A stretch of 37,278 bases of DNA from Candidatus Omnitrophota bacterium. Lineage in GTDB: Bacteria > Omnitrophota > Gorgyraeia > 2-01-FULL-45-10. The notes beneath the pieces are model-generated. The model ran no database searches, had not been told where the DNA came from, and saw only the letters and a list, made by a program, of their open reading frames with translations. Below are positions 2,979 through 29,153 of this stretch, one piece after another (the first letter of the stretch is position 1; every line of letters begins with the position of its first letter). Location: assembly GCA_041667225.1 (NCBI GenBank), contig JBAYFK010000001.1:1-37278 (forward strand), in the 5' to 3' direction. The translations under genes were made by a program, and so were the position numbers.

Positions 2979-3002
2979 ATATATAAATAAGAGGTGATAG
3001 AT

Positions 3003-3054
3003 CCTTCGCTCCGCAAAAGGCGGAGCTCAGGATCAAATTTACTTCGTAAATTTG
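3003..3054 (+). promoter_or_regulatory. two tandem hairpins in the rpsO 5' leader, abutting the Shine-Dalgarno sequence (possible S15 autoregulatory element or ribF terminator)
   Basis: Hairpin 1 is GCTCCGC(3008-3014)/GCGGAGC(3020-3026), extendable by CCT/AGG. Hairpin 2 is CAAATTTA(3034-3041)/TAAATTTG(3047-3054) with a 5-nt loop. GAGAGG (3055-3060) and the TTG start at 3066 follow directly. No T-tract follows either hairpin. Confidence 0.3.
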
Positions 3055-3065
3055 AGAGGTGGAAA

Positions 3066-3335
3066 TTGGGTTTGACAAAAGAGAAGAAAACGAAACTGAT
3101 ATCTGAATTTAAAGCCAATGAGAAGGATACCGGGTCGCCGAGCGTACAGATAGCGCTGCTTACCGAGAGGATCAATTCTCTTTCGGAGCATTTTAAATCG
3201 CATAAGAGCGACCATCATTCCAGGAGAGGTCTTCTGCGTATGGTAAGCATAAGGAGAAGGCTTTTGGAGTATCTGAAGGGCAGCGATCATAAAGGATATC
3301 AGGATATCATTAAAAAATTGGACCTGAGAAAGTAA
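3066..3335 (+). CDS. rpsO: 30S ribosomal protein S15
   Basis: (M)[56 protein letters not shown]... is a canonical S15 sequence of about 89 aa. TTG 3066 has a GAGAGG SD 5 nt upstream. The track start at 2994 adds a non-homologous extension that covers the leader hairpins. Confidence 0.9.
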
Positions 3336-11475: not shown

Positions 11476-11617
11476 TAGAAAATATATATTTCTAGGACCC
11501 GCGATTTTCTGTATAAACTCGGGGGAGTGATCGAGGGTCTTGAAGAAAATAGGTTTACACCATCTTAACTGCATCGCAGATATGGCTATTCTATAGGTGT
11601 GGATCGATTTTCAAGGA

Positions 11618-11657
11618 CCAGATTGCCTAGAAAAAAGAAGGCAATCTGGTTTTTTTA
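11618..11657 (+). terminator. rho-independent terminator-like hairpin (possible attenuator) 35 nt upstream of the giant gene ATG
   Basis: A perfect 10-bp stem, CCAGATTGCC (11618-11627) / GGCAATCTGG (11640-11649), encloses a 12-nt A-rich loop. Eight consecutive T (11650-11657) follow immediately. Confidence 0.6.
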
Positions 11658-11692
11658 TTGCCTCTGTGTTAATAAAATTGAAAGAGAGATTA

Positions 11693-14600
11693 ATGCCTGA
11701 AAGAAAATTTTTCGATCGATCAAATCCGCTGATCAAGACCATCTCTTTAATACTTCTCATCGCTTTCATAGCCCAGGATATAGCATGGGCTGATCCTCAA
11801 ATCTTTTTAAATCAAAGATCATCAGGCGACAAGTTGGCAGCGTCCACTTTTCTGAGGTCCGAAAAGGCCGTAAATAAAGTAAGCGCAAAAGCCATAGAGT
11901 ACGCTGTCGAAGAGTATAGCGCTATTCCCCGTGAAAAGCTCGACGTAGCATGCGTAAGAGCGTCTATAAGAAGTTTATTGGATAAGAATAAGGAATGGTT
12001 CGCTGCGCATGTCAGCTATTCAATGATGTCTCTTGATGGTACGCCCATAGGCGACGATGCGCATGACGGCGATATCGCCGAAGTGGTGGTAAAATTCGCT
12101 CCCGGCTGGTCGGTCAGGTATTTCGATCCCGCAACAGCTAGACCTCAAGAAGGATTCTCCGCTCCCGTAGCAATTAATGACAGGCTCCATAAACAGCTAA
12201 TAACCGGCCCCGGCGACTCTCCTAAGGGGCCGTTCAATTTCTCATTCGGAGAAGGTGTGGGCCTTCGTCATATGGAGGTTAATAATATCATCGCCTTCCA
12301 TGACCTGACCATTGCAAAAAAGGGTAAGTACCATGAAACCGAATTCTATGAGCGTAAGCTGGATGCCGACAAGGATCCAACTTACCATGCAAAAATAGAA
12401 AGAGCCGCAGACCTTCTGATGGCGCAAGGCATCGTTCTTTTTGCAAAAGGCATGGCCTGCACGATAGCGGCGGGAATACCTTTAATAATGCTTTTTACGA
12501 CCCCTCTCGTCGCTATATTCGGTATTTCCATGCTCCCCATAACTTATATATTCGGAAAAAAAGCGCATAAATATTTCATCAGCGCGAAAGGGTACTACGA
12601 TCGCTCCCTAAGCATAAGGGGTGATACCACGGTAGTACTTGTTGATATCCCGTCCCATCTCCTCCTGAGCGGAAAAGAACTGGATGGCTCCAGCTTTTAC
12701 CAGTTCACCCACATAGGAAGGGCCAGGCGCGTGATCTATATGCCGAAGAAGGCATTGCGCGATATGGATATAGCCGATCCCTACGACATGCGCCAACTCG
12801 CGACAATATTGAACCACGATCAGGTCGAGCTCGACATGATGCACAGAGATAACAGGATAGCCGCCGCAAAGACATACGCGGATTACGAAAATCTTCTTAC
12901 GGCCTTTCATGACGCCGCAAAACTTGAAGACCCATTCGGCGAAGCGGCGCATATAGAAGAGCGCATAGCGGGCTGGATGGAGATGGACGATTCCGCAGCT
13001 TCGATACTTAAAAGAGAGATCGAAGAAAAGGTCATGGAATTCGAGATGCGCCAAAGCAATATATTGGATTCGGAAGAATCGCTGGTCAGCGGCCGCTTCT
13101 CATATATATATACTACTGCTAGCATGGCGATGCAGATCGGTTATGCTTATGAGGTTCTGGGCGACCAAAGATCTGCCCACGAGTATTACGGGAAAGCCTG
13201 GTCCAATTTTGTCGAGGTCGTTTCATCTGACGTATATATACTGCCTATCTATGCCCAGCTCAATATAGTAAGGATCAATGCCTTTGAAGGCGACTATGCG
13301 GAAGCGGCCGTGGATTTTAAAAGGCTGACCAATTATGAGATAGGAGTTCCGCACCCGTCCGCTAAATATGTCAAAGGTTCAGTGCGCGTCGTCGAGACCC
13401 ATATCGCGGAAAATATTGAACGGTGGCGCGATGAGGTTTCGGCCCTTATGCGCCACCATGCTCAGGCCTCTGGCGATGTCGGCGGGATGGAAAGGGCGGC
13501 AGCGGCTATTGAAGATATTACGGGAGCTGTCAGTAAATACCTTGGAGAGCAGGAGGTTTTCGAGAAGAGGGAGAAGGAGCGGGCGAGCTATGGCGAACTT
13601 GTGGAAGAGCTGAGGCGCGCTATCCTGATCGGTAACAAACTTTGGGCGGCAAATGTACAGGATGCGCTTTCAGAGAGATTCAAAGGTGAATTACCGGAAG
13701 AAGTAGAGCGGGTGATAAGAGAGACGAGATCGCCGACCGCCGAGATGATCCCGGATGCCGATACGCTTGCAAGCTACATAGACGAACTGGAAAAGGCGGA
13801 GAATATACTTATAGATGAAGAGCAATATGAAAAAAAGGTCTTAAGGCCGCTATTCGACCTTTTGTTATCGTGCCTTGAGAGGGATTTTGACGGGACAGAT
13901 GAATTTGCTGCACATTGCCGCACTGCCATTTCAAAGCAGGATGCGTATGAGCTCCGGATGCAGATGAATAATAAGGACGAGGCGCTTCTCGATAAATTCA
14001 ACAAGATCAGGAGAAAAGACGGTACAGAAGATACTTCTATAGAACTTTATGGACTGCTCCTATTCCACCTTACTGCGGATTCGACGCCTTACATACGCCG
14101 TCTTTATAAAGAATTTATGCAGACCCGCCCGGTCGACAAAATAGCATTTGCACGCAAAGGAGTATCTTATCATACGCGTGGAGACGCAATAATCTATTAT
14201 TATCCCAAGAACCTTCTATTCGAAGGCAGGCGCGCCAATGCCAGAGAAGGACATAGATACGGAGAGGCGAGCGCTCTGGAGGACGCTAAATCCTCGGAGA
14301 ATGCCAGGAAGATCGCGCGGGCTGTTGAAATGTGGAAAACGGCCGCCGAGAACAACCGGGATCTTGACGAGAGGATAAGGCATTTCGAGGACATAACTTC
14401 TATCGTCGAGTTAAATATGAAGACGTCCCTTCTTTTTTCGGATCCACAGCAGAATGTGGTCCGTCCGATCCACTCAGGAAGAAGCCGTCACAGGCTGTAC
14501 CTTTCCAAGCATTATCTCGATTCGCTCGATATAAATAATGAGAGAGACATGAAAGAGCTCGCCACATGGCTCAATTATGGACAGGACTTTCTGGATACGC

Positions 14601-17600
14601 ACGATTTGATGGCGGATGGGGGATATGCGATACCGCGTATACAGAAGGCCCTTTCGAATTTAACATACTCATTTTTTGATCACGAGGATACCGGACTTTT
14701 AGAGCCGGGCTATCTCAAAGAACGGCTTGCGGCGTTCATGGAAGAGGATTTTCTCATCAAGTACAGGGAAGTGCTTCTTGCTGCGATAAAGGAAGAGAAG
14801 GAGGCCGAGGTTACTATGCGCACGATAGTCGAACCCGGCAGGGCCGCTCCTAATGAATATAAATTGGCGAGGAACTCTTATGGCCATCTTCTTTACCGGT
14901 ATGAGGGATTAGGACTTCGCTCCAAGGCTGACAAGGCCTATATGCAGATGACGATCGCTACGTCCGTCGTTCAGACGCACGAAGGCGGCATCACTCCGTG
15001 CACGGATCAGATCGAGCTTGTGCTTACGGCACTGCGTTTCGCGAGATGGGATGATTTCACAAAAGAACTGCGCAAGCTTTTAACAGGAAAAGGTTATCCC
15101 AGGCCTATCGAAAAGTCGGAGCTGCCTCTCGTCATATTTATGTTACGAGGCCGTTTCCAGAACGATCTTCGGCATGCGATCCATGCGCAGAAAGAGGCTG
15201 CCGATCCGTATTCCTACCCGATAGTGGAAAAGGTGGAGAAAGAGGCCGATAAACTTTTGAAAGAATTCTCAGAACACCCGTTCAGCGATCTGGGGCCTAA
15301 GGATGTCCAGGATAGCACAGCGACTCTTTCGTTCATAGGTAAGGCGCTGGGTATAAGATATTCTTCGTTCTTCCATGCTCCGGTCATCGAAGAAAGCGCC
15401 AAGGTGGGCATACCCTTCGGGATATATGCCGTACTCGATGCGGTCAAGCATTCGTTCCCATCCCTTAATGCAGCTATCTTTGCAGGTGCTATCGCCGTAT
15501 TCGGTATCGTCTTTATCATTGCTCATCTATTGAATGAAAGGGCGCCTCCGCGATCGGCAGGAGAAGCGTTCCGTATCTTTGCGGCGCCTGCTGCCGCGAC
15601 CATCGCAGGCGGTATTCTTTCCTATCTCTTTTTTACAAACCCATTATATGCAATTCTCTCAAGCATTCTCGCTCATCTTATTATAAATGCGATCGTTTGG
15701 GCGCTACGCCGTTTAAATATCGACATCAAATACTCGACCGTATATTTTCCGGGTTCTCATCGTGTGACATGGACAGAGATAGAGCGTATACGTGAACTTT
15801 CCGCAAAATGGGACCTTAAGGCTAACGGGTTGAAAAATCTTGAAGATGTGCTTAAAGACCCGGGAGCTGAAAATGTGCGGCGCGCCATACTTGACCTTCT
15901 TGAAGGGGGAACGTATAGCGCGCTCAGCCGTTTCCAGATGTACAAAGAGAGGGAACGCGGGTCAAAAGCGGAATTCCTTGGAGAATTGGTACAGGCGGCC
16001 TCGTGCCAGAGACGCATCAGGTCTTCAAAGGTCATCGAGATGGGTCCCATATTGGCAGGAGCTGAGATCGATGCAGTTGTCGAAGTAGATCATAAGAAGT
16101 ATGCCTCGAGAAGACAGACAGGGCTTACCTATGACCTTCCCGATGGGATATATCTCATGGAAGGGAAGGTTGACGAGTTTGGCGATATAGAACAGTTCAT
16201 CAGCTATATTTTCGAAACAAAACTTGATAAGTATCTGCGGGCCGCGCGGGAATTGAAGAAGAAGGGCAAGAAAGTTTCAGGGATCATATTTGCCGTAGGC
16301 GGCGGCATAGCCAGCTTGAATCCCGAGGAGTTCAGAAAGAGGCTGATCGAGATGGGAGAGTCGGATGAAGAGATCCTCGCCGCCGGCTTTGATCCCGAAA
16401 AATTCAAGGTATACACTTATCTTGTCCCGGAAACTATCTACGAGGAAGGGCCCAAGACCGCGCTTACGCCTAAGGATATAGAATATATCGATGCGGTAAT
16501 GAAAAGGCCGGAAGAGGATGGCTCTATACCGCAAGAGACGCTTTTAGAGTGCCGTTCGGTCCTTGAGCGCGCGCTTCTCCTGTTTGGGCTTGAGAGGGTG
16601 AGATCCGTCTATCTATCCAACCATTTCAGAAGGCACAATGTAAGCCTCGTGGCCCGTACATACGATATTAATGAATATGCGAAAGCCGTGCTCGACCTTA
16701 AGAGCGACATAGCCGAGATCGATAAAGATATGACCTTTGTCATGGACGATTCGTTCATAGCCGAAGATGGAACGGCTCCCGTTCTCGACGGGAAGAAGAC
16801 CGACAGGGTAAGGAACCCCAACTATGAAAAAATGGATTTCACTCTCGGGCAGAAGACGTGGGGGAATTTCGAGATGTTCATATCGAAGGACAGGTCGACC
16901 GTATATGTTTCGTCCGTTGAGAGGGGTTCTGCCGAGTACTTTTCTATCAACATGGATATGGCAGCGCCGCATCCGCTTATGTACCATTCGGGTGATCTGC
17001 ATATAGCGCTTGACGCATCTATCCCGGCCGCATCCTTAAACAACGGACATAATATAAATATGGCCAGGATCATAGGCATCCTCAGAGAGGCGATCGGGTT
17101 CAGAGAGGAAGTTGTAAAACATGATAGATCGGACTACTATTGGATAGACAGGCTGGGCGGCCGGGGAAATGAATTGGTGTCATACGATATTCTGGCTGCC
17201 CATAAGATCCCGCATCTTATGGAATTTGTCGGCCCTCATGCGCTCATACCGGATCTCTATGCGCTCAACGAAAAGAATAGACTTGAATTGCTTGCGGAAT
17301 TTGGCAGGCATAGTCCTGCGGTCCTGGGCAAAAAGTTCGCTTACGGTTACTATGCGATAGTTTCGGTCCCGCAAGGACGCAGGCCGACGAACGAGAAGTT
17401 CCCTCCGGCAGAGGAGCTTATTTTAAGCGCCAGCATGCCGGATAAATTTCTGCGCAGCCCAGCGCAATTCCAGAAAAGCGCCTCAGTGATAGCTGAAGAG
17501 TTCCTTGCAAACCTCAGGATTTTAGCTTCCGAAGAGGATATGAGTATGCCTGTACCTCGCTCGATCATGGTCGAGGATTCATACGGGAATATGAAGATCC

Positions 17601-20600
17601 GTTTTGAACTGGATCCCGTCAGGAAGGTGATCATCTCCGCCTCTGCCGTAGAAATGGTCCGGACGATATCTCAGAAAGACTTGAGAACCGTATTCATGGA
17701 ATCGGAAAGCATCATCACGTCCAGGACGGGTATGGTGGATATATCGAAGGTACGGCCCTCCAAACTCATGAGGTATGGATATGCAAAGATCGTAGGATCT
17801 AACGGTAACATTGTCATAGCTCCTGTCGAAGGCATGATCCAGAGGCCGATGCCGAGAAACTGGGCAATGGGGTTACCGTTCACATCGCTCGCCGTATCTT
17901 TAGCGGGTAAGCGCTCTGTTCCTGACAAGAAAAAATCCGGGAAGAAAGATGCGCCGTCGCCGAAACGGGAAGTCGTATTCGCGATCGATCTGCCGGCTTC
18001 TACTGGATTTGATGACGATGTACGCGAGAGCGAAAAGATATATGAATTTCTGGATGGATTTGAGCAGGATCATAAGGGTAAGCTAGGCGGGCTATTGGAA
18101 GATGTTCTTGAGGAGTTGATCTTTAATGTTACAGATCATGGCCGCGGCGGAAAGATGGTCATATATATGGAGAAAGACGCTGACGGTGAGCCGGCAGCTA
18201 TTGAGATCGTGACAACTGATAACGGGCCGGGGCTGCCCGATAGTCCCGATGATCTTGTAAAGAAAAGCTTGTTGGCACATGAAAGATTTGTTAATAGCCC
18301 GGATGACGAGCCGGAGCCTTTAGACGATGGTATTGATTATGCATTAATGAATGCTTACAGGGGGCAAGGTTTTGCCAGGATAGCCCTTGACCCGGATAGT
18401 GTTACTATTGAGTGTAACGGCTTGAAGTATTCAAGGTCTACAAACGATAAGAATGCTTCCTCATGGTTCGGTGAACCGGTAAAGAGCGAAGTTACGACCG
18501 GCGCCCGTTTCACCCTCGGTTTCTCATTACGGAGCGAAGCTACCCATATTCCTTCTATCCCTGTTGACCGCAGGCCGGTAGATTCAGGGCTTCTGGCTTC
18601 GAGCTTTGTCGAATACGACATGGACGTCAAAGAAACGGTCAACCCTGACAATAAACCTATTAAGGCTCTCTATTGCGCCTCCGGCGCCGATCTCTCGAAT
18701 TTTCTTCTATCGACTAACGCAACCGAAGGATACTTTGTTTCTCACTACCGTGGGCGTTTCCGCACCATGAGGGGCAAAGACCTAAGGGAGTGCTTTGAAA
18801 GCGCGTCACCAGAGGATTATATAAAAAAGAATCTGTCTCCATATTATCGGGAAAAGTTCGAAAGGGGTTTTGCAGGCACGGAAACCTTTTATAGCATGCG
18901 TCAAACGATCGCCGCTATGGCTTTTGAACTGAAGTCGATCGGTGTTGACTTGTCGACCGTAAAGATAGATACGCTTAACGGCCGGCCCGTCTTACGGTTC
19001 CGATGGAAGTATTATGGCTGCGACGAGCGCGATTATTCCGTAGTCCTTATAGACGCCGATGCGACAAAACCGGAGGAGTATGCCGCTGATCTTGCCGGTG
19101 TTGCTATGGATGTATATTATCAGCGCGCTGGGAATGAGCTTCCTATGGAGTACAGGAAAGGAGCAAAAAGCTATATCGGTTGGATATACGCCAGGATGAA
19201 ACCGGGTGCTTATGTCGTGACAGACGACAACGCTTTTGACAATGCCCAGCAATGGTACCGCGACCTTGGCGGCTCCTTTCCACTGCCGGCTAAAGAGGTC
19301 GACATGCCCGAGCTGTGGCCTATAGAGTGGGTCATTCTCAGGGCTCTGCGCCCTATGGATATATTTAACCATGAAGCGGCGTTTTACGGCTGGCGCATGA
19401 CTGTCCGCCAGAAGCCGATCGACGCGGAGATGGTAACGGACGATATAGGTAATCTTGTGAAGGTGTCCAAAAGGCCTTTCCTGGCAAGGATCGTAGCATA
19501 TTTGCGGGGTAAGGGTATTTCGGAGCGGTGGATAGCGTCTTTGGGCGGGCTCGAGGAATTGTTCTTCAGCGGAATTGTAATAAGCGCTTTTGCTGCAGCA
19601 GCGCCCCATATCTTTGCAATTTCATTCTCAGCCGCCCTTTATACAGGTTTTGGCATAAGCGCCGTCCTATTTACGCTCTCACACATTAAAGAAGTTTACA
19701 GGATGACAGGAGGTGCTCTTACTACCGCGCCTCCTTCAGCCTCGGATATGATCTTTATAACGGGATTGGGAATGGCCTTCCGCGCGGTATATCTTGCGGG
19801 GCTGGCCCTGCTCCCATTTGGCCCTTACAATATAGCAGTTGCTTTACCTCTCATAATAGTTCTTCATAGCATTTATAATGCGTTCATAGCCCCAAGATCG
19901 GACCTTGTTCTGGGTATGGCATCAGTGAACCCGGATAAGCCATTCAAAGAACTCACCCGCATAAACTCTTCTATTGCAACCGATACAACCGCCCTTATCA
20001 ATCAGTTATCGAAAAGCTTCTCGTCGGCATATCTGATAATGAACCCTTTGCGCAACATCAAAGCCGGCCTTGCCAGATATGGTTATGTTAAGCGGACCTC
20101 TCTGGAATCATGCCGCCTTGGAATAAGACGTATTCTGGCCACATGGCATCTTTCCGAAACTAAAAAGAAGAAGCTCTCGGCCGCTCTTAACAGGATAGAT
20201 AAGATACTGGCCAAGATGGACCGCATGGACGGGATGATAGACGGTATTGAGCTATTACCTCGCGGCGTAAGCGTCTCTTCCGTCGCATCAGGCCTCAACA
20301 TTTGTGTGATAAGACTGAAGAGCATACTCGAAGGGATCAGGGAAGAGGATGTCCATCTCATCGAAAGACTGGAAGGCATAAGCGCCTCTATTCACGAGAT
20401 GGCAGTCGGGCATGAGGAGATAAACTCTGAAAAATTGATCGGCTATGTAAAGGCATTTAAAGCGATATCGACCCACCAAGGGGTAGGAGATAAGAGCCGC
20501 GCCAGGATATCTCGCCTCGCAGATGACATGAGCGCCTTGTTAGCAAGCGCTAATGAACAGGGTGGAGGATCACGATCCCCGGCAGCCGAGCAGATCGAGA

Positions 20601-23600
20601 CATCACTCTTTGATTCGGAAGATATGAGCCTTATTGACAGGATGTGGATAGCTATGCCAGTCCAGGATGGACGTGATTGGAGCGCTGCCGTAGAAGAGCT
20701 GCAATCCAGGTTCAGCAAAGATCATCCGGGAGACCTCCAGGTAATAGAAGAAGGGGCGTCTTATGACATAGATGAGCGCGTATCGGACCGGTTGGTTAAG
20801 TATGTCGAATCCATTGGCGGGAAACATGCCGGTGACGTACATATAATGACGTCTACTATAAGCGCTGCGCTGCAAAATGTGTATCAGCACGGGGATAATT
20901 ACGGAGCTATGATATTAAGGGCCAGGCGCACGGGCCGAAAGATGGAAGTGGAATTTGTAATAATAGACCGCGGACAAGGGTTTATCGACCGCCAAGGTAA
21001 GCATGTGGATATCCACGAAGCCGTTAAATACGGGAAGTCTTTCGGCGCGAACGGCCAAAGCGGTATAGGGCTGACCATTACCGTTGAGGTGGCCGATAGC
21101 ATTTCTATTACGACCGTCGACAGATCTTCCGGGTCATCGGAGGCTTACTACTGGGAGAAGGGGGACGTTCATGAGTCCCGTCTGAAAACTGCGCCTGTTG
21201 AGAGCGGTTCAAAGATAGTCTTTACCAGAGAGGTCGATTTAACTCCGGAGCCCGATGATCCGAAGGGCGAAAACGTTGCAGTAGAGCCGGCCGCTCAAAG
21301 CGTTGACATTGTTAAATGGTATTTTGAAGAATATGAACCTTCTCAAGTTGAAATGGCCGCATCGTTCAACGATGGGACTCTTACGGGGGACCATATAATA
21401 GAATGGGTAGACCGTGTGGTACGTCCACTAAAGCCGGACTTAGATGTTACCGGGATCGTTGAAACGGGCAAACCATTCACGCCGCGTCAGGCAGGGCTCT
21501 TAGGTGAAAAGATCTTGAAAGATGTCCTTATCCCGCACGGTATCATTGCGCATGTGTCGGCCGTTGCTTCAGGTGTAGCTGTCGGATCGATAACTAATAC
21601 GGAGACGATAACAACACCTGCGGGACGTACGATACCTTTATATACGGTGCGTACTCTGAGAGGTGAATTCGGCCAAGGGACAGCTTTTGCCGAATATGTC
21701 ATCGTGCCGGAAGAGATAGCCAAGGAGTCTCATGAAATTGCAGATCATTATGCCAAACTATGGCGTGACCACATGGAAGGGCGCGCTCCTGCCGCTCTTT
21801 TCAGATACCAGAAGCGGTATGCGGAATGGATCTTTATGCATCTTTTCGGTAAGTCCGATGCCGCTGCTGCCGCGCGCCTCGTCCGTGAATGTGACCTTGC
21901 AGAGGAGCTGAGCCATTCTGATATGCAGGCTTTTACGGAGACGGTATTAGAAAGGCCTCTCGACACGGCGGTACCTGAGGATGTAGAGGCGGCAAGCCAC
22001 GCGATACTTAAACCCGCATCTATCGAAGAGCTCGCCTTTGAAGCAGCCCGCGACGGCGAAACTCGTTATATCCTCGCTGAGGCAGTTCTTGAGGTTGAAG
22101 CAAAGCTTAATGCTATAATACGCTCGCCGATGAGCGCCTATAATTTCCTCGAGTTCCTGCACGGAAATGTCGTCGACCTGCATATACCCGGTGATGAGCC
22201 GCCGGAATATAACGTTGCCAGGAATATACTCCTATCCGTTATGAGTAAACACCTTTTCGGCAAGAGCACTACGGACACTCGCGAGTGGAGAGACTATCTT
22301 GACGAGACGTTATGGAATATGGACGAATTTAATGCTGCCCTGAAGAAGGCGGCCGCCGCGGCTTACCGCGAAGAATTCTTGAGTCACGATGAAAGAGTAA
22401 AGAAGGCCGAAGGATATAAAACAAGGCGCCGGCACACGGAACTCTACACTAACATGTATAGGGAGCTCGTAAGGCCGCGTTTTGCGCTGGGCGCGCCAAA
22501 GGTCCTTAACATCTGCTCCGGCGCGGGCGCCAGCGCAATATTGTATGCGACTAACTGCTCCTCATCGGTCATGATCGACAGGCTGTCCTTCGGATATAAC
22601 GCAGGAGTGATGAGCGGCCGGTCTGAGCGGACAGAACGGGAGCGATATTTTAATGATATCGCTCAATATGATTTTCCCCGGACTGACACTCTCACAGGGA
22701 TCGGATCTCTCTGGCTTCCTCTTAAGTGGGAGCTGGCAGAGATGGGTATAGGAGAGGATGCGATCACGGTGGATAATCCTGCATATGGCACGTGGCGCGT
22801 CCGTTTTACGTGGCAGCATCCCGACGATGATCAGCCGCGCGAGAGGACATTGTGGTTCTATCAGGAGGACATTCCCGAATCATCGGGCGTTGCCGATCTT
22901 TCGGCCGGCGTAAGGCTTGACGCTCAAAAGGTGGACATCCTGGATGCCGATATACTCTTCGACAGAGCCGCCGAACACACTTTGCGCGCGACTACCGATA
23001 TGCCGCTCTATATGAAACGCAAAAGCATAGTGATCACCGATAATCCGGTCAGAAAAAATATATTCGATACACAGGATTCTCTCGTTCCCGTAACGCTAGA
23101 TCCGGCCCTTTCGGAACAGTCCAGCCGTTTCGGATATGTAGGGAAAAATACGTATGAAAAACATGACGCGCTTGATGCTATGGCGGTCTACGAAGTCCGG
23201 GGTTCGTCTAACGGGTTTTCCGGAGATAACGTCAATATTTATAGCGCAGACTCGCTTACCGGAGAAGAGAGGGATAGGCTCGCCCGTTTTGTGATACGGG
23301 AAGGGCTCGATATAAGTACTACATATATAGGAGAAGATGAACGCGGTATTGAGCTTGGCCGCGCCTATCTCGACAGGTTGACCAGGAAGAACGAGAGCGG
23401 GGAGAGTGGATATTTTGTAGCTTTTAAAGGAGGGGATCCGGTAGGTATCGTCAGTTATGCGGTTCTTCCCGGATGGCTTGCAGCCGAAAGAGAATACGAG
23501 TCTACCATAGACGATCTGTACGTTACCGGTAGCGTCAGAAATCAGGGGATAGCAGCAGATCTCGTGCGGCAGGCCGAAACGCATTTACGAAAGAAGAACG

Positions 23601-26600
23601 TCAAAAATTACTATGTCGTAGTAGGGCAGGGTGCCCCGTCTCAGGACTTCTGGAAAAAATTTATTCCCCGGGAATATCAGACCGTGGATGACAAAGGTGA
23701 GCTCTTTTCATCGATCGTTCCTTTTGAGAACCCAAGAGAGATAGCTCGGGTGGAGGCATGTATAAAAGCCGTGAAGGCGGGCGCGTTCCAGAACGGCAAC
23801 GTGGTCGACTTAAGAAGGATACCGCCCGATATGGAGGTCATTATCGTTGGGGATCTCCATGCGCGGGTGGATAATCTCGGCAATATCCTTGAGCATGCGG
23901 ATCCCGGGACCGGCAAGAGCGTATATGAAAAGGTCAGGGACGGCGAGGCGGTACTCATACTGCTTGGCGATGTGGTGAACAACGATCCTCCGGATACTGA
24001 AAATATCGCGGCCATTGCGGAGCGCCTCTCTTCGATGGAAGAGTCCGTCGATATGATCAAAAAGGTCATGGACCTGAAGATCTCCCATCCGGATAGCGTC
24101 TACTACGTGCTCGGCAATCATGATGATCCTTTTTCCATGTGCAATAGAGGCGGGATAGATCAGTCGAGGATATACAGGGATACGATCCGGTCGCGTTACG
24201 GCGAGAGATATCTTTATCTCTATAACGATCTTATTCAGGCGAGCCCGGTAATGGTCATAGCAGAAGGTCTTGTAGCCACGCATGCTGCCCCAATAAGAAG
24301 GCTCTCTCTTGAGAATATAATCAATGCCGATAAAGATTCTGATGAGATACATTTCGGGATGTGGGGGCGCCATGAATCCCATTTTGGAGATCTGGTCGAT
24401 ATTTCGGAAGACTCGAGTCCCCTCCGCCAGCTGCTTTATCAGTCGCGCAGGGAGCAGTCGTACGACAGCAGAGATGTTGTTGAATTCCTCGATAGGGTCG
24501 GCCAAAAAGACGGCGTATTCATCGTAGGCCATACACCTGATCTTATACCGGAAGGCGATTTCCACGCCGAGATCGAGGATAGACATCACATTATATATGC
24601 CGCGCGCGATAAGACGGGATACGCTTCGTTCACAGCCGGCAAGCTCGATTTTGTGGAAACGTCCGCCGTTGAAATGCCGCGCGTAGAAAGATCATCGCCA
24701 ACGCCATCGTCCGGTCTTAAGCTTGCCGACAAAGTCCTTTTAGCGCTGCCGATCGAGGAACAGCAGAGAGTGGACGCGGTGGTGCGTTTTGCCGCGCATG
24801 TGATGAGGCTTAGCGGAATAGGAGATGCAGATCTGGAAAAGGAAGCCGCTTTCGACGCCATCCCTGCTTCGACTGTAGCGGCGTTCATGCTGGCCGAGAG
24901 AGATAAAGACGCTAAACTTGACAGTTATGATGAGAGCTGGGAGGCGGACGCGATAATATTTTTAGGTCATAACCATCCGTTATTCAAAGATACTAAAGTG
25001 ACGCCGAAACTGAGCATACGCGTTCTTTTCGAGATGCGTAAGCGCGGTATGCAGGTTTCAGAATATTGTATTTCCATGTGCGATTCCGTAGATAAGCTCG
25101 TATCATTCCTTTTGAACGGCCCGCTCGAAGAGAAAGAGAGGATGGCCCGCGCAACCCTTATGATAGAAGAGCTTGGAATGAAAGATCTCATCCCATGGTC
25201 GGCCGCAGCGCTCGACAGGATATCTCTTTACGCTGAATGGGCCGGTACACCCGACGAAGCGCGCGTTGCGTGCTCTTTCCTGGAGCATTTCACCGGGCAC
25301 CTTTTTGAGTCACGCGCCATGGCAGATGCGTTCATGTTCAATCTGTCCGTGGTGGAGGGTTTCCTTGGCCCAGGCAATATAAATAACAAGGATACGGGGG
25401 TCGTCTATCTTCTCGGCGGGGCAAGCCTGCTGTACGACCAGGCCAGACAGATCGCCTTATCTTTAAAGGTCAGTCCTTCGCGTATACATCCGTTCTCTTT
25501 GAACAGGAAGACGGCTGAAAGCGATGACGAGACGATAAGGGAATACATAAAACAGGAAGGCCTCGACCGCTATAAAAATCTCGTCATAGTCGACACAGGG
25601 TTCCATGGCAGCATGGCGCGCCGTCTTAAAGATGTATTGGGATCGATGCCGAACTCTCCCCGTAACGTACACGCGAGACTTTTGGCGATGAGCTCAGAAC
25701 CGTATGAATACAAGGGTATGGATGTTCTGGGATATAACCATGTTCTTCAGGAGGTAGATCCAAATTGGTCCGAGATCGATAGGAACGCTCTTTTCTTAAT
25801 AACCCATCTCCTCGATAACATATTCCCAAAACGCGAACAGTCGCCCGGCCGTCTCGATACTGCGAACGTTCTCGTGGCCGTCACTCCGGTTACTGTACCT
25901 TCGGAAGTGCCAGGTTTTGCAGCTATAGTGTCCAACGAGATGCGACTCGGTACGGGCAGATTATTATCACGCGGTTTCGAATATCCCGATCCGGGGAATA
26001 GCGTGTGGGAGAGATGGATTCCCTCCGGAAAAGATGAAATGGAAGGCGCTCCAGCGGCGGAAATTCCGGACCTTCTCGACAGTACGGTCAGGGGCAACGC
26101 TTCATACGGTAAATTGAAACAGGAATTGACATCCCGGTTTACGCGTCTCGGCCAGAAGGGCGTTTCTTTAGATAGTGTGGAGGATGTTCTCGATGAAAAT
26201 AGCGTAGAGATCTTCCAGGCGATGTGGGGCCTGAGGAACATCTTTACCGGTTCCAAGTTTTCTGATGAAAGGGCGCAGACGGATATGTGCTATGAGGTGA
26301 GCGTGGCTGTATGCGAAGCTTTTGACGAAGCGGTCCCCGGCCATGAAATCGTCCTCATGAGCGGATATTATGACGATGCCGGAGGCGGGCTCTTTAGAAT
26401 ACCTCATTTCTGGGTAGTGATAGACGGCGATATCGCAATAGACCTTACATACGGACAGTTCGATAGCGAATACGAGGATACCGCTCTCGTTGTCCGGACC
26501 GGAGAGCTCCCGCGGTACAAGCTGGAGCAGGGGAAGGTGGCTCCTTGGAAGAGCGCTCCTAGACCCCAGACATCAGTAGCCGCTACCATTTCAGCCATAC

Positions 26601-27175: not shown

Positions 27176-27248
27176 AAAAGCCCGGGTAAATGGGGCGCAG
27201 GAAAGCTTTCCCCCCGAGTTAGCGATCCTTGCCTCACCCCGGGCTTTT
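27176..27248. terminator. 11-bp perfect inverted repeat between the convergent giant gene and thpR (possible bidirectional terminator or structured element)
   Basis: The arms are AAAAGCCCGGG (27176-27186) and CCCGGGCTTTT (27238-27248), separated by 51 nt. The spacer contains the palindrome GGAAAGCTTTCC (27199-27210). The right arm overlaps the thpR stop codon. The spacer is unusually long for a simple intrinsic terminator. Confidence 0.3.
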
Positions 27249-27813
27249 ATTGTCCAAGCCTCGTTTCGTGTATCTTGGTATAAATAGACCCCTTGGGAGT
27301 GAGAGTGGACCGGAAGAGTATTACGGAAGATATAAGCTGGGGTTTCAAGTCCAACATGGCGGGATCGAGCGACAATACTTTTTCTTTTAGGGCGTCTTTG
27401 TTCTTCGCATCTTTTACGCGCCCTATAGTCATATGAGGGCTGAACGCCCTTTCCTCTTTCTGAAATCCTATCTCTGACATCTTTTCATCGATCGTTCCAG
27501 CCAGTAATTTCGATTCTTCCGCGCCCTTATCGAGACCTGCCCAGACGACGCGCGGATGTTCTATCCTCGGGAATGCGCCTATCTCTTTTACTGAGATATC
27601 GAAAGGGTGCGTTGCGCTGCCTATAGCGTCGAGCGCAGATGTGATGCGCTTAACTTTATCCTCATCCGCTTCGCCCAGGAACTTTAAAGTCAGGTGTATA
27701 TTATCCGTTTCCACCCATTTCACATCCGCGCCCGAATATTTCAGGTGGGATTGCACCATGGACAATCCTTCTTTGATCTCGTCCGATAGTTCTATCGCGA
27801 TGAATAGCCGCAT
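27247..27813 (-). CDS. thpR: RNA 2',3'-cyclic phosphodiesterase (2H phosphoesterase, LigT/ThpR family)
   Basis: Both HxTx motifs of the 2H superfamily are present: NIHLTLKFLG and SPHMTIGRVK. The length of 188 aa is typical. Confidence 0.85.
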   Translation of the reverse strand: MRLFIAIELSDEIKEGLSMVQSHLKYSGADVKWVETDNIHLTLKFLGEADEDKVKRITSALDAIGSATHPFDISVKEIGAFPRIEHPRVVWAGLDKGAEESKLLAGTIDEKMSEIGFQKEERAFSPHMTIGRVKDAKNKDALKEKVLSLDPAMLDLKPQLISSVILFRSTLTPKGSIYTKIHETRLGQ

Positions 27814-27827
27814 ATTTGGGTATCCGT

Positions 27828-29060
27828 TTATATATTTTCCCGGATAATGTTGAGAGCTGCCTGTGAGGTCTGAAATTTTATCTCTTCGCGTGAACCCCTG
27901 AACCTGAATTCCCGCACTAAAGATCTTTTTCCTGTTACAAGAGCGGTAAAGACGAGCCCTACCGGCTTCTTTTTAGTTCCGCCGAGCGGTCCGGCTATTC
28001 CGGTCGTACTCAATCCTATGTCTGAACCGGCCAGTTTTCTTATGCCCTTTGCCATTTCGAGTGCGACCTGGCCCGATACCGCGCCGTATTTATCGATCAT
28101 CTCTTCCGGTACGCCGAGAGTGGCCGTTTTAGAAGCATTCGAATAGGTAATGGCGCCCATCTTATAATACCCTGAACTGCCGCGCACATTGGTAAGCCTA
28201 TTGGCGATAAGCCCTCCCGTGCATGATTCAGCCGTCGCGATGGTCATCTTCTTTTTAAGCAGGATCATTCCCGTGGCGCCCTCGAGCGTCTGGTCGTCGC
28301 ATCCGAAAATTTGCTCTTTAAGCCTTGAGCGGATCTTTCTTTCGATCTTGTTTATGGCCATCTTAGCCAACCGGTCATTTTTTGCTTTTGTCATTATCTT
28401 AAGCTGGACCATCCCCGGAGATGCGTAAATACCGACCGTGGTCGGAGGTTTTAGCCTGAGCAGGTCTCTTACGGAAGCGTCGATCTGGGACTCCGCGGCG
28501 CACGCTATCTTTATTGAGCGCGACCGTATCGGATGCGCGTTTTTAATTCTCTTTTTAATGTAAGGGATGATGTCGGCAGTGAACATTGGTTCAAGTTCTC
28601 TCGGCGGTCCGGGGAGGCATATGATCTCTTTTCCGTTGTATTCAGCGATCAGTCCGGGAGCGGTCCCGACGCGATTTCTTATTAATTTCAGCCCTTTAGG
28701 CATATATGCCTGCCTCAGGCTCGCTTTCACGTACCTGAGCTTTCTAAATTTAAAATAGTCCTTGATGCCATTAAGCACCATTTTATTAAGGACGAGAGGC
28801 CTGCCGGTCAGTTTCGATATCGCTTCGACAGTGACGTCGTCTATCGTTGGGCCCAGTCCGCCGCTCATTATTACCATATCCGAACGCTTCAAGGACTCTT
28901 TTATAGCTCTCGTCAACCTTTCGACGTTGTCGCCTACAGTGGCCTGGTGATACACGTCTATCCCCGCCTCAGCCAGCTTCTGCGAAAGAAAAGCGGCATT
29001 GGTGTTCACTATGTGCCCAAGCAATAATTCAGTGCCTATAGAGATGATCTCTGCTTTCAT
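27828..29060 (-). CDS. cinA: competence/damage-inducible protein CinA (MoCF-type domain plus nicotinamide-nucleotide amidohydrolase PncC domain)
   Basis: MKAEIISIGTELLLGHIVNTNAAFLSQKL is the canonical CinA N-terminus. The C-terminal domain carries IATAESCTGGLIA. I chose ATG 29060, because the track start at 29123 adds 21 non-homologous residues. Confidence 0.9.
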   Translation of the reverse strand: MKAEIISIGTELLLGHIVNTNAAFLSQKLAEAGIDVYHQATVGDNVERLTRAIKESLKRSDMVIMSGGLGPTIDDVTVEAISKLTGRPLVLNKMVLNGIKDYFKFRKLRYVKASLRQAYMPKGLKLIRNRVGTAPGLIAEYNGKEIICLPGPPRELEPMFTADIIPYIKKRIKNAHPIRSRSIKIACAAESQIDASVRDLLRLKPPTTVGIYASPGMVQLKIMTKAKNDRLAKMAINKIERKIRSRLKEQIFGCDDQTLEGATGMILLKKKMTIATAESCTGGLIANRLTNVRGSSGYYKMGAITYSNASKTATLGVPEEMIDKYGAVSGQVALEMAKGIRKLAGSDIGLSTTGIAGPLGGTKKKPVGLVFTALVTGKRSLVREFRFRGSREEIKFQTSQAALNIIRENI

Positions 29061-29153
29061 GCTGCTATTATATAAGCTTTTTAGCTTTTTTTGCAACAAT
29101 TTTACTATTTTTAACGTCATCATATATGGGACGACGCAGCGTATTGAATTAAC

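What the first reader, a model, noticed from the sequence alone, without database searches (positions are those of the whole stretch)
18050..21235. Two RsbW/SpoIIAB-type GHKL ATPase (anti-sigma serine kinase-like) domains
Copy 1 lies at about nt 18050-18535. It reads LLEDVLEELIFNVTDHGRGG (N-box Asn codon 18125), IEIVTTDNGPGLP (G1 box, Asp codon 18218) and YRGQGFARIAL (G2-like), ending with TTGARFTLGFSL. Copy 2 lies at about nt 20780-21235. It reads ISAALQNVYQHGDNYG (Asn codon 20876), FVIIDRGQGF (Asp codon 20966) and GQSGIGLTITVEVAD, ending with GSKIVFTREV. The N/G1/G2 order and spacing, and the upstream helix (..VRESEKIYEFLDGF.. / ..RVSDRLVKYVESIG..), match the HATPase_c_2 class, which covers SpoIIAB/RsbW-like serine protein kinases and anti-sigma factors. 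I found no phospho-acceptor HisKA (H-box) region upstream of either copy. That favours a serine-kinase or partner-switching type over a classical sensor histidine kinase. No STAS/anti-anti-sigma or sigma-factor gene is nearby, so any substrate is unknown.
Basis: partly seen in the sequence, partly recalled or inferred. Interest (0 to 1): 0.68.

Follow-up and report, generated by a model that had tools for sequence, protein, structure and literature searches.

The report
Two GHKL ATP-binding domains, giant Omnitrophota protein
Two stretches of a 5,154-residue membrane protein from an uncultured Omnitrophota bacterium are real but very divergent copies of the ATP-binding domain used by histidine kinases and anti-sigma serine kinases; this domain type is already reported in such long proteins, so the finding is correct but fairly ordinary.

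Summary
All quoted motifs are in frame in one giant ORF (11597..27157, probable true start ATG 11693), in a housekeeping region of a Candidatus Omnitrophota MAG.

On their own, both copies score below Pfam's thresholds. HATPase_c gives 22.8 bits against a cut-off of 26.4. HATPase_c_2 gives 24.4 bits against 27.4.

Profiles built from homologues found by an exhaustive search settle the fold:
- The copy-1 family hits a histidine-kinase ATP-binding domain (E=4e-7) and SpoIIAB (E=3e-5).
- The copy-2 family's best hit is RsbW (E=9e-4).
- The two families are homologous to each other (hhalign 93.7 %).
- Their invariant columns are the N, G1, G2 and G3 box residues.

AlphaFold models (pLDDT 84 and 88) retrieve only GHKL structures. 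Copy 2 is closest to SpoIIAB, RsbW and UsfX (TM 0.62–0.70).

No HisKA, STAS, sigma-factor or PP2C partner was found, here or near relatives. An anti-sigma partner-switching role is therefore not supported.

These domains are a lineage-specific subfamily. They recur next to methyltransferase-like and GNAT cassettes in long Omnitrophota proteins, a co-occurrence two preprints already describe. JGI already names this protein an "anti-sigma regulatory factor (Ser/Thr protein kinase)". Kinase activity and any substrate remain inferred.

The parts
11597..27157 (+). Giant ORF, 5186 codons from the GTG. The probable true start is ATG at 11693, giving 5154 aa (NCBI MFA6609229.1, Candidatus Omnitrophota MAG). 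It is a multi-domain, membrane-anchored protein.
   Evidence: The 63-72 % identical syntenic orthologue P0002 aligns from codon 33.
11693..11791 (+). Signal-peptide-like N-terminus: a K/R-rich n-region, a hydrophobic core and AWA|DP.
   Evidence: Read from the sequence. The motif is conserved in P0002 (SWADP) and P0058 (SWAYP). No signal-peptide predictor was run.
15380..15712 (+). First Rce1/CPBP-like multi-TM module (about aa 1262-1372).
   Evidence: Weak Pfam Rce1-like hit, hydrophobic segments, and FxxxH/HxxxN motifs read from the sequence.
17972..18547 (+). GHKL copy 1 (aa 2126-2317, 'c1' family). Key residues are E2173, N2177, H2181 (N box), D2208xGxG2212 (G1), G2258 (G2) and G2302 (G3). 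About 45 residues are inserted in the ATP lid.
   Evidence: - Pfam HATPase_c E=1.3e-4, 22.8 bits, cut-off 26.4.
- 12 of 16 family members hit HATPase_c and 7 of 16 hit HATPase_c_2.
- Family profile against PDB: histidine kinase 7z8n E=3.9e-7, SpoIIAB E=3e-5.
- Invariant columns.
- AlphaFold pLDDT 84.4.
- The listed top 50 Foldseek hits are all GHKL-type ATPase or kinase structures, best E=1.8e-3.
18557..19417 (+). 'X' domain copy 1 (aa 2321-2607). An unannotated family that may be a divergent class-I methyltransferase-like domain. It directly follows copy 1.
   Evidence: It was the most frequent match in the exhaustive search and occurs in 125 of the 150 listed proteins. It has no Pfam hit. 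The only PDB resemblance is E~0.03 to SAM methyltransferases.
19529..19891 (+). Second Rce1/CPBP-like 4-TM module (about aa 2645-2765).
   Evidence: Pfam Rce1-like E=0.0039, below the cut-off. Hydrophobic segments. Homologues match query positions 531-683.
20732..21259 (+). GHKL copy 2 (aa 3046-3221, 'c2' family). Key residues are N3094, H3098 (N box; Ala at N-4), D3124xGxG3128 (G1), G3156 (G2) and G3204 (G3).
   Evidence: - Pfam HATPase_c_2 E=3.1e-5, 24.4 bits, cut-off 27.4.
- Family profile against PDB: RsbW 6m36 E=8.6e-4.
- AlphaFold pLDDT 87.7.
- Foldseek: SpoIIAB TM 0.66-0.70, RsbW 0.62-0.64, UsfX 0.62, prob 1.0.
- hhalign against the c1 family: 93.7 %.
22499..23056 (+). 'X' domain copy 2 (aa 3635-3820).
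   Evidence: The X-family HMM scores iE=1e-17 on the giant. Colinear BLAST similarity 2356-2505 to 3635-3775.
23390..23659 (+). GNAT acetyltransferase domain (aa 3932-4021).
   Evidence: Pfam Acetyltransf_1 E=9e-11, above the cut-off.
23831..24352 (+). Calcineurin-like metallophosphoesterase domain (aa 4079-4252), with motifs GDLHA, GDVVNN and GNHD.
   Evidence: Pfam Metallophos E=2.5e-8, above the cut-off. Motifs read.
26579..27154 (+). Conserved C-terminal domain of unknown fold (aa 4995-5186). It is shared with both positional orthologues.
   Evidence: 81 % identical to P0002 and 45 % to P0058. No PDB hit and no significant Pfam hit.

Best explanation
Both segments are genuine, paralogous, highly divergent single-domain GHKL (Bergerat-fold) Mg-ATP-binding modules. 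They are of the compact kinase type, like SpoIIAB, RsbW or a histidine-kinase CA domain, and lack the dimerisation/His-phosphotransfer domain.

They sit inside a 5154-aa multi-enzyme membrane protein of an Omnitrophota bacterium, alongside:
- two methyltransferase-like 'X' domains;
- a GNAT domain;
- a metallophosphoesterase domain;
- two CPBP-like transmembrane modules.

Shown:
- the fold;
- homology to GHKL proteins;
- conservation of the nucleotide-binding residues across an Omnitrophota-specific subfamily;
- modular, cassette-like distribution of the domains;
- absence of STAS, sigma-factor or HisKA partners.

Inferred:
- each module binds ATP;
- each acts as a built-in protein (Ser/Thr-type) kinase or ATP-driven switch on a neighbouring domain of the same polypeptide or on an unknown partner;
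- phosphatase-type domains elsewhere in these polypeptides could reverse such a modification.

They are not anti-sigma factors in the classical partner-switching sense.
For: GHKL identity:
- Family profiles hit GHKL proteins in PDB. The c1 profile gives histidine kinase 7z8n E=3.9e-7 and SpoIIAB E~3e-5 over positions 10-125, and nearly all of the other 35 listed matches are GHKL proteins. The c2 profile gives RsbW E=8.6e-4, then Hsp90 and SpoIIAB.
- 12 of 16 c1 members hit HATPase_c (best 7e-8) and 7 of 16 hit HATPase_c_2 (best 6e-9). 5 of 14 c2 members hit HATPase_c_2.
- The invariant columns are E/N (N box), DxGxG, the G2 Gly and the G3 Gly.
- The two families are homologous over 142 columns (hhalign 93.7 %, E=2e-7).
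- AlphaFold models have pLDDT 84.4 and 87.7, with beta-alpha-alpha-beta-beta-lid-alpha-beta-beta-beta order.
- The listed top 50 Foldseek matches for each model are all GHKL-type structures. For copy 2, SpoIIAB, RsbW and UsfX give TM 0.62-0.70.

Kinase-type rather than sensor histidine kinase or anti-sigma:
- No HisKA hit at E<=1.
- No STAS, sigma or PP2C gene in the window or at five loci with relatives.

A functional and selected module:
- Three positional orthologues sit in the same pgpA | gene | cinA-recA slot, and each keeps at least one GHKL. The window has c1 and c2, P0002 has c2, and P0058 has c1.

Phospho-signalling company:
- Metallophos in this protein.
- An HPr-like domain about 200 aa upstream of c2 in P0006, and an LMW phosphotyrosine phosphatase domain in P0098.
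- Methyltransferase or X domains adjacent to the GHKL in at least nine proteins.

Existing annotation and literature:
- JGI already names the protein 'anti-sigma regulatory factor (Ser/Thr protein kinase)'.
- Two preprints list HATPase_c together with methyltransferase and GNAT domains in long Omnitrophota proteins.
Against: - Neither window copy reaches a Pfam gathering score.
- Single-sequence PDB searches and word-indexed database searches found nothing.
- Copy 1's structural matches are weak (best E=1.8e-3, TM 0.25-0.43). They are led by Hsp90, topoisomerase II and MutL rather than by kinases.
- Copy 2 and its family lack the Glu at N-4 (Ala in the window), so they may bind ATP without catalysing transfer.
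- No substrate domain has been identified, and the kinase role is pure inference.
- The N-terminus looks like a cleavable signal peptide. The 1082-aa orthologue P0058 has no evident further TM helix by inspection of its sequence (no hydropathy scan or TM predictor was run on it). Taken at face value, that puts an ATP-dependent domain outside the cytoplasm.
- Co-occurrence with phospho-related domains rests on three proteins only.
Confidence: 0.72

Rival explanations
1. Classical partner-switching module. The domains act as RsbW/SpoIIAB-type anti-sigma factors that sequester a sigma factor and phosphorylate a STAS-domain antagonist.
For: - Copy 2's nearest solved structures are SpoIIAB, RsbW and UsfX, and RsbW is its best profile hit.
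- The c1 profile aligns with nearly the full length of SpoIIAB.
- JGI's automatic name says so.
Against: - No STAS, sigma-70 or PP2C Pfam hit in any gene of the window or inside the giant protein.
- None next to relatives at five other loci, and none in 15 relatives scanned.
- The domains are embedded in a 5154-aa membrane protein rather than being free 15-kDa dimers.
- Copy 2 lacks the ExxxN Glu.
Confidence: 0.05
2. GHL-type ATPase clamp. The domains hydrolyse ATP to drive dimerisation or a conformational change, as Hsp90, MutL, GyrB and MORC do, rather than transferring phosphate to a protein.
For: - Copy 1's top Foldseek hits are Hsp90 N-domains, topoisomerase II/VI ATPase domains, MutL/PMS1 and ParE.
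- The c1 family has an invariant Glu four residues before the Asn.
- The second half of copy 2 aligns with Hsp90: GQxGxG..VAD..YxWE..P..G[ST]KIV.
Against: - The scores are weak (TM 0.25-0.43).
- No Pfam-detectable transducer domain follows. Copy 1 is followed directly by the X domain.
- Domain size and the beta1-alpha1 N-terminus match SpoIIAB.
- Copy 2's best structural matches are kinases.
Confidence: 0.13
3. Catalytically dead or purely structural GHKL-derived domains, that is, nucleotide sensors or protein-binding scaffolds without enzymatic turnover.
For: - Copy 2 and its family lack the N-4 Glu.
- The sequences diverge too far to pass Pfam thresholds.
- Copy 1 is dispensable in the closest orthologue, where a GNAT-like cassette replaces it.
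Against: - The Mg- and adenine-binding residues (Asn, DxGxG, G2, G3, and His at N+4) are invariant or nearly so across relatives about 35 % identical. That argues for retained nucleotide binding at least.
- At least one GHKL is kept in all three positional orthologues.
Confidence: 0.08
4. Catalytic (CA) domains of unconventional sensor histidine kinases, whose His-containing dimerisation domain is too divergent to recognise.
For: - The best PDB profile hit for c1 is a histidine-kinase CA domain (7z8n, E=3.9e-7), followed by WalK, AdeS and RetS.
- Pfam prefers HATPase_c for 12 of 16 c1 members.
- A classical HK-RR pair lies next to relative P0068.
Against: - No HisKA-type hit at E<=1.
- Upstream sequence shows no H-box by inspection, and there is no F box between G1 and G2.
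- No response regulator in the window.
- The domain begins with beta1-alpha1 as in SpoIIAB.
Confidence: 0.02

Closest known systems
SpoIIAB / RsbW / UsfX anti-sigma serine kinases (Pfam HATPase_c_2, COG2172)
   Same: - Single compact Bergerat-fold domain with a beta1-alpha1 element before the N-box helix.
- N box with His-Gly at N+4/N+5, DxGxG, and G2 and G3 boxes.
- No HisKA domain.
- Copy 2 superposes on SpoIIAB with TM 0.66-0.70.
- The c1 profile aligns with SpoIIAB residues 15-127.
   Different: - Embedded in a 5154-aa membrane protein rather than a free dimer of about 145 aa.
- No STAS antagonist, sigma factor or PP2C phosphatase nearby.
- Copy 2 lacks the ExxxN Glu.
- Copy 1 has about 45 extra residues in the ATP lid.
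- Both have an extra Trp-containing beta-hairpin before G3.
- Both score below the Pfam gathering threshold.
Catalytic ATP-binding (CA, HATPase_c) domain of sensor histidine kinases
   Same: The N, G1, G2 and G3 motifs and the fold. It is the best PDB profile hit for copy 1 (7z8n, E=3.9e-7).
   Different: No DHp/HisKA domain, no F box and no response regulator.
HATPase_c domains of long or giant Omnitrophota proteins (West-Roberts et al. 2023, bioRxiv 10.1101/2023.11.21.568195; 'Module 1' of bioRxiv 10.64898/2026.06.07.730766)
   Same: - Same phylum.
- Same habit of combining histidine-kinase-like ATPase, methyltransferase and GNAT domains with many TM helices in one very long polypeptide.
- All named carriers of c1 and c2 are Omnitrophota.
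   Different: - This protein has 5.2 thousand residues, below the 10-30 thousand thresholds those studies used.
- Its GHKL copies fall below Pfam cut-offs, so domain surveys at curated thresholds would miss them.
- Those papers give no function for the domain.
Hsp90 / MutL / type II topoisomerase (GHL) ATPase domains
   Same: Bergerat fold. They are the top Foldseek hits for copy 1. Copy 2 shares a local motif with Hsp90 after G2.
   Different: No transducer domain was detected, the domain is much smaller, and the structural scores are weak.

Membership tests
GHKL (Bergerat-fold) ATPase/kinase superfamily | N-box Asn (Mg2+ ligand) on a helix | tested here: met
   N2177 and N3094 are invariant in both family alignments. 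They lie in helices 40-57 and 49-69 of the models.
GHKL (Bergerat-fold) ATPase/kinase superfamily | G1 box DxGxG at the end of a beta-strand | tested here: met
   D2208-N-G-P-G and D3124-R-G-Q-G. Asp and Gly are invariant or at least 90 % conserved.
GHKL (Bergerat-fold) ATPase/kinase superfamily | G2 (glycine-rich, after the ATP lid) and G3 (G[ST] before the last strand) | tested here: met
   G2258 and G2302 in copy 1, G3156 and G3204 in copy 2. All are conserved in their families.
GHKL (Bergerat-fold) ATPase/kinase superfamily | Alpha/beta sandwich fold that matches solved GHKL structures | tested here: met
   The listed top 50 Foldseek matches for each model are all GHKL-type structures. Copy 2 is strong (prob 1.0, TM up to 0.70). 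Copy 1 is weak (best E=1.8e-3, TM 0.25-0.43).
GHKL (Bergerat-fold) ATPase/kinase superfamily | Pfam HATPase_c or HATPase_c_2 at the curated gathering score | tested here: not met
   The window copies score 22.8 against 26.4 and 24.4 against 27.4. Relatives reach E=6e-9, and family profiles are significant against PDB.
SpoIIAB/RsbW-type anti-sigma serine kinase | Closest structural and profile neighbours are SpoIIAB/RsbW | tested here: inconclusive
   Met for copy 2. For copy 1, the profile hits SpoIIAB at E=3e-5 but a histidine kinase scores better, and no SpoIIAB appears in the Foldseek top 50.
SpoIIAB/RsbW-type anti-sigma serine kinase | ExxxN: a Glu four residues before the N-box Asn | tested here: inconclusive
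   Copy 1 has E2173, invariant in its family. Copy 2 has A3090, and that position varies across its family.
SpoIIAB/RsbW-type anti-sigma serine kinase | STAS-domain antagonist/substrate encoded nearby | tested here: not met
   No STAS hit in any gene of the window or inside the giant ORF. None at loci L082-L086.
SpoIIAB/RsbW-type anti-sigma serine kinase | Cognate sigma factor and PP2C phosphatase in the operon | tested here: not met
   None in the window or at the related loci.
SpoIIAB/RsbW-type anti-sigma serine kinase | Small free-standing protein of about 140-160 aa | tested here: not met
   Both copies are internal to a 5154-aa protein. One free-standing 169-aa c2-family gene does exist elsewhere, P0109.
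SpoIIAB/RsbW-type anti-sigma serine kinase | Serine phosphorylation of a partner and sigma-factor binding | not testable with these tools
   This needs biochemistry.
Sensor histidine kinase | HisKA/DHp domain with a phospho-acceptor His upstream of the CA domain | tested here: not met
   No HisKA-type Pfam hit at E<=1 in the 1000-aa pieces that contain each copy. No H-box by inspection.
Sensor histidine kinase | Cognate response regulator | tested here: not met
   No Response_reg hit in the window.
GHL ATPases (Hsp90/MutL/GyrB/MORC) | Transducer domain that supplies a catalytic Lys/Arg after the ATPase domain | tested here: inconclusive
   No such Pfam domain was found, and copy 1 is followed directly by the X domain. 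The 400 aa after copy 2 have no annotation and were not modelled.
Omnitrophota long multi-enzyme proteins ('Module 1' architecture) | Omnitrophota origin with methyltransferase, HATPase and GNAT domains in one TM-containing polypeptide | tested here: met
   NCBI name, GNAT above the cut-off, GHKL as above, and TM clusters. The methyltransferase-like X domain is only weakly supported. The length of 5.2 thousand aa is below that study's 10-thousand cut-off.

The most novel reading that the evidence does not exclude
The c1 and c2 domains define an Omnitrophota-specific family of built-in protein kinases. They pair with methyltransferase-like or GNAT cassettes and with phospho-acceptor or phosphatase domains (HPr-like, LMW-PTP, metallophosphoesterase). 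Together these would form self-contained phospho-regulatory circuits within single, cassette-swapping giant polypeptides. Alternatively, given the signal-peptide-like N-terminus, they could be exported kinase effectors that act inside a host or prey cell.
Probability: 0.15. Interest if true: 0.6.

Novelty: new member of a known kind. Interest (0 to 1): 0.3.

Why it matters
- It shows that curated-threshold domain scans undercount GHKL modules in Omnitrophota long proteins. Both copies here fall below Pfam cut-offs yet are clearly real.
- It supplies two family alignments (c1 and c2) with which such modules could be searched for.
- It shows that the domain is kept in three positional orthologues of very different length (1082, 4816 and 5154 aa) while the surrounding enzymatic cassettes are swapped. 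That hints the ATP-binding module is a core, selected part of these poorly understood proteins.
- It does not reveal a new type of system. Without biochemistry, the function (kinase, switch or sensor) stays open.

Tried and rejected
- Direct BLASTP of copy 1 against copy 2 gave no meaningful alignment (E=0.056, out of register). Homology only emerged through profiles.
- Single-sequence phmmer of each copy against PDB gave nothing significant.
- The word-indexed search of 5.8 billion proteins found nothing with copy 1, with copy 2 or with alignment A2.
- Pattern scans of species-representative genomes and of JGI metagenome contigs with aa 2100-3299 found no relatives.
- A MiaB anchor scan for synteny gave a best identity of only 45 %. 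None of the 80 loci contained a relative of the giant protein.
- NCBIfam gave only non-significant hits: spIIAB E=0.03 and EnvZ E=0.11.
- PADLOC gave no hit for any part of the protein, so it is not a catalogued defence system.
- A self-BLAST of the whole protein listed no internal repeat. Only a targeted comparison of the two halves showed colinear weak similarity.
- The X-domain profile gave only E~0.03 to methyltransferases in PDB and no Pfam hit.
- The C-terminal domain profile gave no PDB hit.
- I considered and rejected a phage or mobile-element origin. The flanks are housekeeping genes, and the locus is syntenic in two other Omnitrophota genomes.

Full report
**Setting**

The finding lies inside a single ORF, 11597..27157 on the + strand, of 5186 codons from a GTG. 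The flanking genes are ordinary bacterial housekeeping genes. Upstream are a DHH phosphoesterase, truB, ribF, rpsO, pnp, dut, ftsK, rodZ, a miaB-like gene, pgsA and pgpA. Downstream are ligT and cinA on the minus strand, then recA, recX, alaS, hisD, hisB, hisH and hisA.

An exact-sequence look-up identifies the protein as MFA6609229.1. NCBI names it 'GNAT family N-acetyltransferase [Candidatus Omnitrophota bacterium]', 5154 aa, on a contig of 37278 bases. A fragment of the same protein in JGI/IMG is already named 'GNAT superfamily N-acetyltransferase/anti-sigma regulatory factor (Ser/Thr protein kinase)'. The 5154-aa length and the alignment with an orthologue both place the real start at the ATG of codon 33, nt 11693.

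**Check of the observation**

- Copy 1: N2177 at 18125 and D2208 at 18218.
- Copy 2: N3094 at 20876 and D3124 at 20966.

A Pfam scan of the whole protein in overlapping pieces at E<=1 gives GHKL-clan hits only at these two places, and in the right register:
- HATPase_c profile positions 6-63 on copy 1 (E=1.3e-4 to 2.2e-4, 22-23 bits, cut-off 26.4).
- HATPase_c_2 profile positions 39-116 on copy 2 (E=3e-5 to 5e-5, 24 bits, cut-off 27.4).

On their own sequences, then, the two copies are suggestive but below curated thresholds. Single-sequence searches of PDB and a direct BLASTP of one copy against the other are uninformative.

**Homologues and profiles**

The word-indexed protein search found nothing. 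An exhaustive phmmer of aa 2100-3299 against 1.84 billion representatives found 347 relatives. Most are other very long proteins.

Distinct sets of proteins carry a copy-1-like ('c1') or copy-2-like ('c2') domain. I extracted these and aligned them as A1 (16 sequences) and A2 (14 sequences), with mean column identity of about 35 %.
- Invariant columns in A1 are E2173, N2177, D2208, G2210, G2258 and G2302. G2212 is at least 90 % conserved.
- In A2, N3094, G3126 and G3128 are invariant. H3098, D3124, G3156 and G3204 are at least 90 % conserved.

These are the N, G1, G2 and G3 boxes of the Bergerat fold.

Results with the family profiles:
- The A1 profile hits a histidine-kinase CA domain (7z8n, E=3.9e-7) and SpoIIAB (four sequences, E~3e-5, aligned over SpoIIAB residues 15-127). 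Nearly all of the other matches listed are histidine kinases, Hsp90 or relatives.
- The best hit of the A2 profile is RsbW (6m36, E=8.6e-4), followed by Hsp90 and SpoIIAB.
- 12 of 16 c1 members hit HATPase_c (best 7e-8) and 7 of 16 hit HATPase_c_2 (best 6e-9). 5 of 14 c2 members hit HATPase_c_2.
- The two families are homologous to each other over the whole domain (hhalign 93.7 %, E=2e-7, 142 columns). Iterated HMM searches merge them.

**Structure**

AlphaFold2 with these alignments gives confident models. Copy 1 has pLDDT 84.4 and pTM 0.81. Copy 2 has pLDDT 87.7 and pTM 0.83.

Both models have the order beta1, alpha1, alpha2 (N box), beta, beta (ending at the G1 Asp), lid, alpha (G2), beta, beta, beta (after G3). 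It aligns with SpoIIAB alpha1 in the profile alignment.

Foldseek against PDB lists GHKL-type structures in all of its top 50 matches for both models:
- For copy 2 the best are SpoIIAB (1tid, 1l0o, 1th8; TM 0.66-0.70 normalised to the target, rmsd 3.6-4.4 A, prob 1.0), RsbW (0.62-0.64) and UsfX (0.62).
- For copy 1 the hits are weak (best E=1.8e-3, TM 0.25-0.43). They are led by Hsp90, topoisomerase II/VI, MutL and ParE. The low-confidence insertion of about 45 residues in the ATP lid probably contributes to this.

It is not triggered.

**What kind of GHKL**

- No HisKA-type domain is detected upstream. No H-box or F box is visible by inspection.
- No response regulator, STAS, sigma-factor or PP2C gene occurs in the window.
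- None occurs next to relatives at five other loci, and none in 15 relatives scanned with Pfam.
- No transducer domain of the Hsp90/MutL/GyrB kind is detected. Copy 1 is followed directly by another domain.

The modules are therefore compact, kinase-type GHKL domains without the classical partners of either two-component or partner-switching systems.

Copy 1 keeps the Glu four residues before the Asn (ExxxN), as SpoIIAB and RsbW do. Copy 2 has Ala there, and the position varies in its family. Both families keep His-Gly at N+4/N+5. Each also has its own conserved lid motif (c1: PDELVRxSL; c2: HVPIHEAV) and a Trp-containing hairpin before G3.

**Architecture and evolution of the host protein**

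Besides the two GHKL copies, the protein contains the following:
- A signal-peptide-like N-terminus.
- Two Rce1/CPBP-like TM modules.
- Two copies of an unannotated 'X' domain (aa 2321-2607 and 3635-3820), with only a faint resemblance to class-I methyltransferases.
- A GNAT domain.
- A metallophosphoesterase domain.
- A conserved C-terminal domain.

Weak colinear similarity (2013-2215 to 2928-3131, and 2356-2505 to 3635-3775) suggests an old duplication of a GHKL+X block.

Two positional orthologues occupy the same pgsA-pgpA | gene | cinA/ligT-recA slot in other Omnitrophota genomes:
- P0002 (4816 aa, 63-72 % identical) keeps copy 2. In place of copy 1 + X1 it has a 277-aa GNAT-like segment.
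- P0058 (only 1082 aa) keeps the N-terminus, a c1 domain and the C-terminal domain.

So the protein evolves by cassette gain, loss and swapping, but each version keeps at least one GHKL module.

In other proteins, c1 and c2 domains sit next to the following domains:
- X domains (P0005, P0006, P0024, P0075, P0078).
- Canonical methyltransferases (P0121, P0108, P0032).
- GNAT and nucleotidyltransferase domains (P0027).
- An HPr-like phosphocarrier domain (P0006).
- An LMW phosphotyrosine phosphatase domain (P0098).

All carriers that have a source name are Candidatus Omnitrophota.

**Mechanism**

Shown: the fold, the homology, conserved nucleotide-binding residues, and the absence of classical partners.

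Inferred: each module binds Mg-ATP and works as a built-in protein kinase or ATP-dependent switch. It would act on a neighbouring domain of the same polypeptide or on an unidentified partner. Phosphatase-type domains in the same proteins are possible antagonists. I put about 0.9 on the GHKL/ATP-binding identity and about 0.4 on actual protein-kinase activity. The combined statement as worded gets 0.72.

The main rivals are a GHL-type ATPase clamp, a non-catalytic nucleotide sensor or scaffold, a true partner-switching anti-sigma module, and a histidine kinase with a cryptic DHp domain.

One unresolved difficulty is topology. The conserved N-terminal signal-peptide-like sequence, together with the lack of evident TM helices in P0058 (judged by inspection of its sequence, without a hydropathy scan or TM predictor), would place an ATP-dependent domain outside the cell. 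That is only avoided if the protein is delivered to another cell or the N-terminal helix is not a signal. I could not run a topology predictor.

**Comparison with what is known, and novelty**

HATPase_c is listed among the 20 most frequent domains of giant Omnitrophota proteins (bioRxiv 10.1101/2023.11.21.568195). A 2026 preprint describes a co-occurrence module of methyltransferase (PF08241), HATPase_c (PF02518), GNAT (PF00583) and HAD domains in Omnitrophota proteins of at least 10,000 aa. It reads these proteins as inner-membrane-anchored with cytoplasmic domains (bioRxiv 10.64898/2026.06.07.730766).

The present protein is a shorter example of that architecture, and JGI's pipeline had already flagged a COG2172-type domain in it. 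What this analysis adds:
- Both copies are real despite sub-threshold scores.
- They belong to two related lineage-specific subfamilies.
- They behave as swappable cassettes, often next to methyltransferase-like domains.
- Nothing supports an anti-sigma role.

This is a new member of a known kind. Interest is modest (0.3).

Noticed in passing
window 18557-19417 and 22499-23056: An unannotated 'X' domain of about 290 aa occurs twice in the giant protein. It is present in 125 of the 150 best relatives and also exists as free-standing proteins of about 300 aa. It has no Pfam family. The only PDB resemblance is E~0.03 to class-I SAM methyltransferases, with motifs YGGAGxDxSNFLLSTNA, FIxxDIT and DxYYQRAG.
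   Followed up: partly
window 17903-19486 (aa 2103-2630), compared with L083:16217-17047: In the 63-72 % identical syntenic orthologue P0002, the whole copy 1 + X1 block is replaced by 277 unrelated residues with a GNAT-like hit. P0002 also has a 357-aa insert after copy 2. The window has an extra aa 4450-4812. This looks like cassette swapping inside one conserved gene.
   Followed up: partly
L084:8001-11249 (P0058), compared with window 11597-27157: The same slot between pgpA and cinA/recA in another Omnitrophota genome holds a protein of only 1082 aa. It shares the N-terminus, a c1 GHKL domain and the C-terminal domain with the giant protein. Positional orthologues therefore differ five-fold in length.
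   Followed up: partly
window 27247-29123, compared with L084:11304-13110: The ligT-cinA pair lies on the minus strand in the window and in L083. In L084 it lies on the plus strand in the order cinA-ligT. This is a local two-gene inversion between related genomes.
   Followed up: no
window 11597-11791: The mechanical ORF starts at GTG 11597, but the NCBI call and the orthologue alignment indicate ATG 11693. The N-terminus then reads like a Sec signal peptide (K/R-rich, hydrophobic core, AWA|DP), and this is conserved in both orthologues. It is hard to reconcile with ATP-, SAM- and acetyl-CoA-dependent domains in P0058, which shows no evident further TM helix by inspection.
   Followed up: partly
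window 15380-15712 and 19529-19891: There are two Rce1/CPBP (CAAX-protease-like) multi-TM modules with EExxx, FxxxH and HxxxN motifs. Both are below the Pfam cut-off. They could relate to the proposed self-cleavage of giant Omnitrophota proteins.
   Followed up: no
window 26579-27154: The C-terminal domain of about 190 aa is more conserved than the rest of the protein in these comparisons (81 % with P0002 against 63-72 % for the aligned blocks; 45 % with P0058). It has no Pfam or PDB match.
   Followed up: partly
window about 12700-12860 and 14490-14630 (aa ~370-420 and ~965-1010): A possible internal repeat in the N-terminal third...DMRQLATILNHDQVELDMMH and ...DMKELATWLNYGQDFLDTHDLM. BLAST self-comparison did not detect it.
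   Followed up: no
P0006 aa 1492-1552; P0098 aa 1347-1485: Relatives that carry c2 domains also contain a PTS-HPr-like phosphocarrier domain (about 200 aa upstream of c2) or an LMW phosphotyrosine phosphatase domain. These are possible phospho-signalling partners within the same polypeptide.
   Followed up: no
L082:852-1361 (P0109) and L082:1372-2214: A free-standing 169-aa c2-family gene exists, with a 526-bp upstream spacer. A gene 11 bp downstream encodes what looks by eye like a secreted trypsin-like serine protease. No STAS gene is present on this 2.2-kb contig.
   Followed up: partly
whole window: The host lineage is remote from the genome collection. The best MiaB match among 185,579 species representatives is 45 % identical, and the giant-protein segment has no relative there. 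Nearly all genes are on the + strand, with positive GC skew throughout.
   Followed up: no
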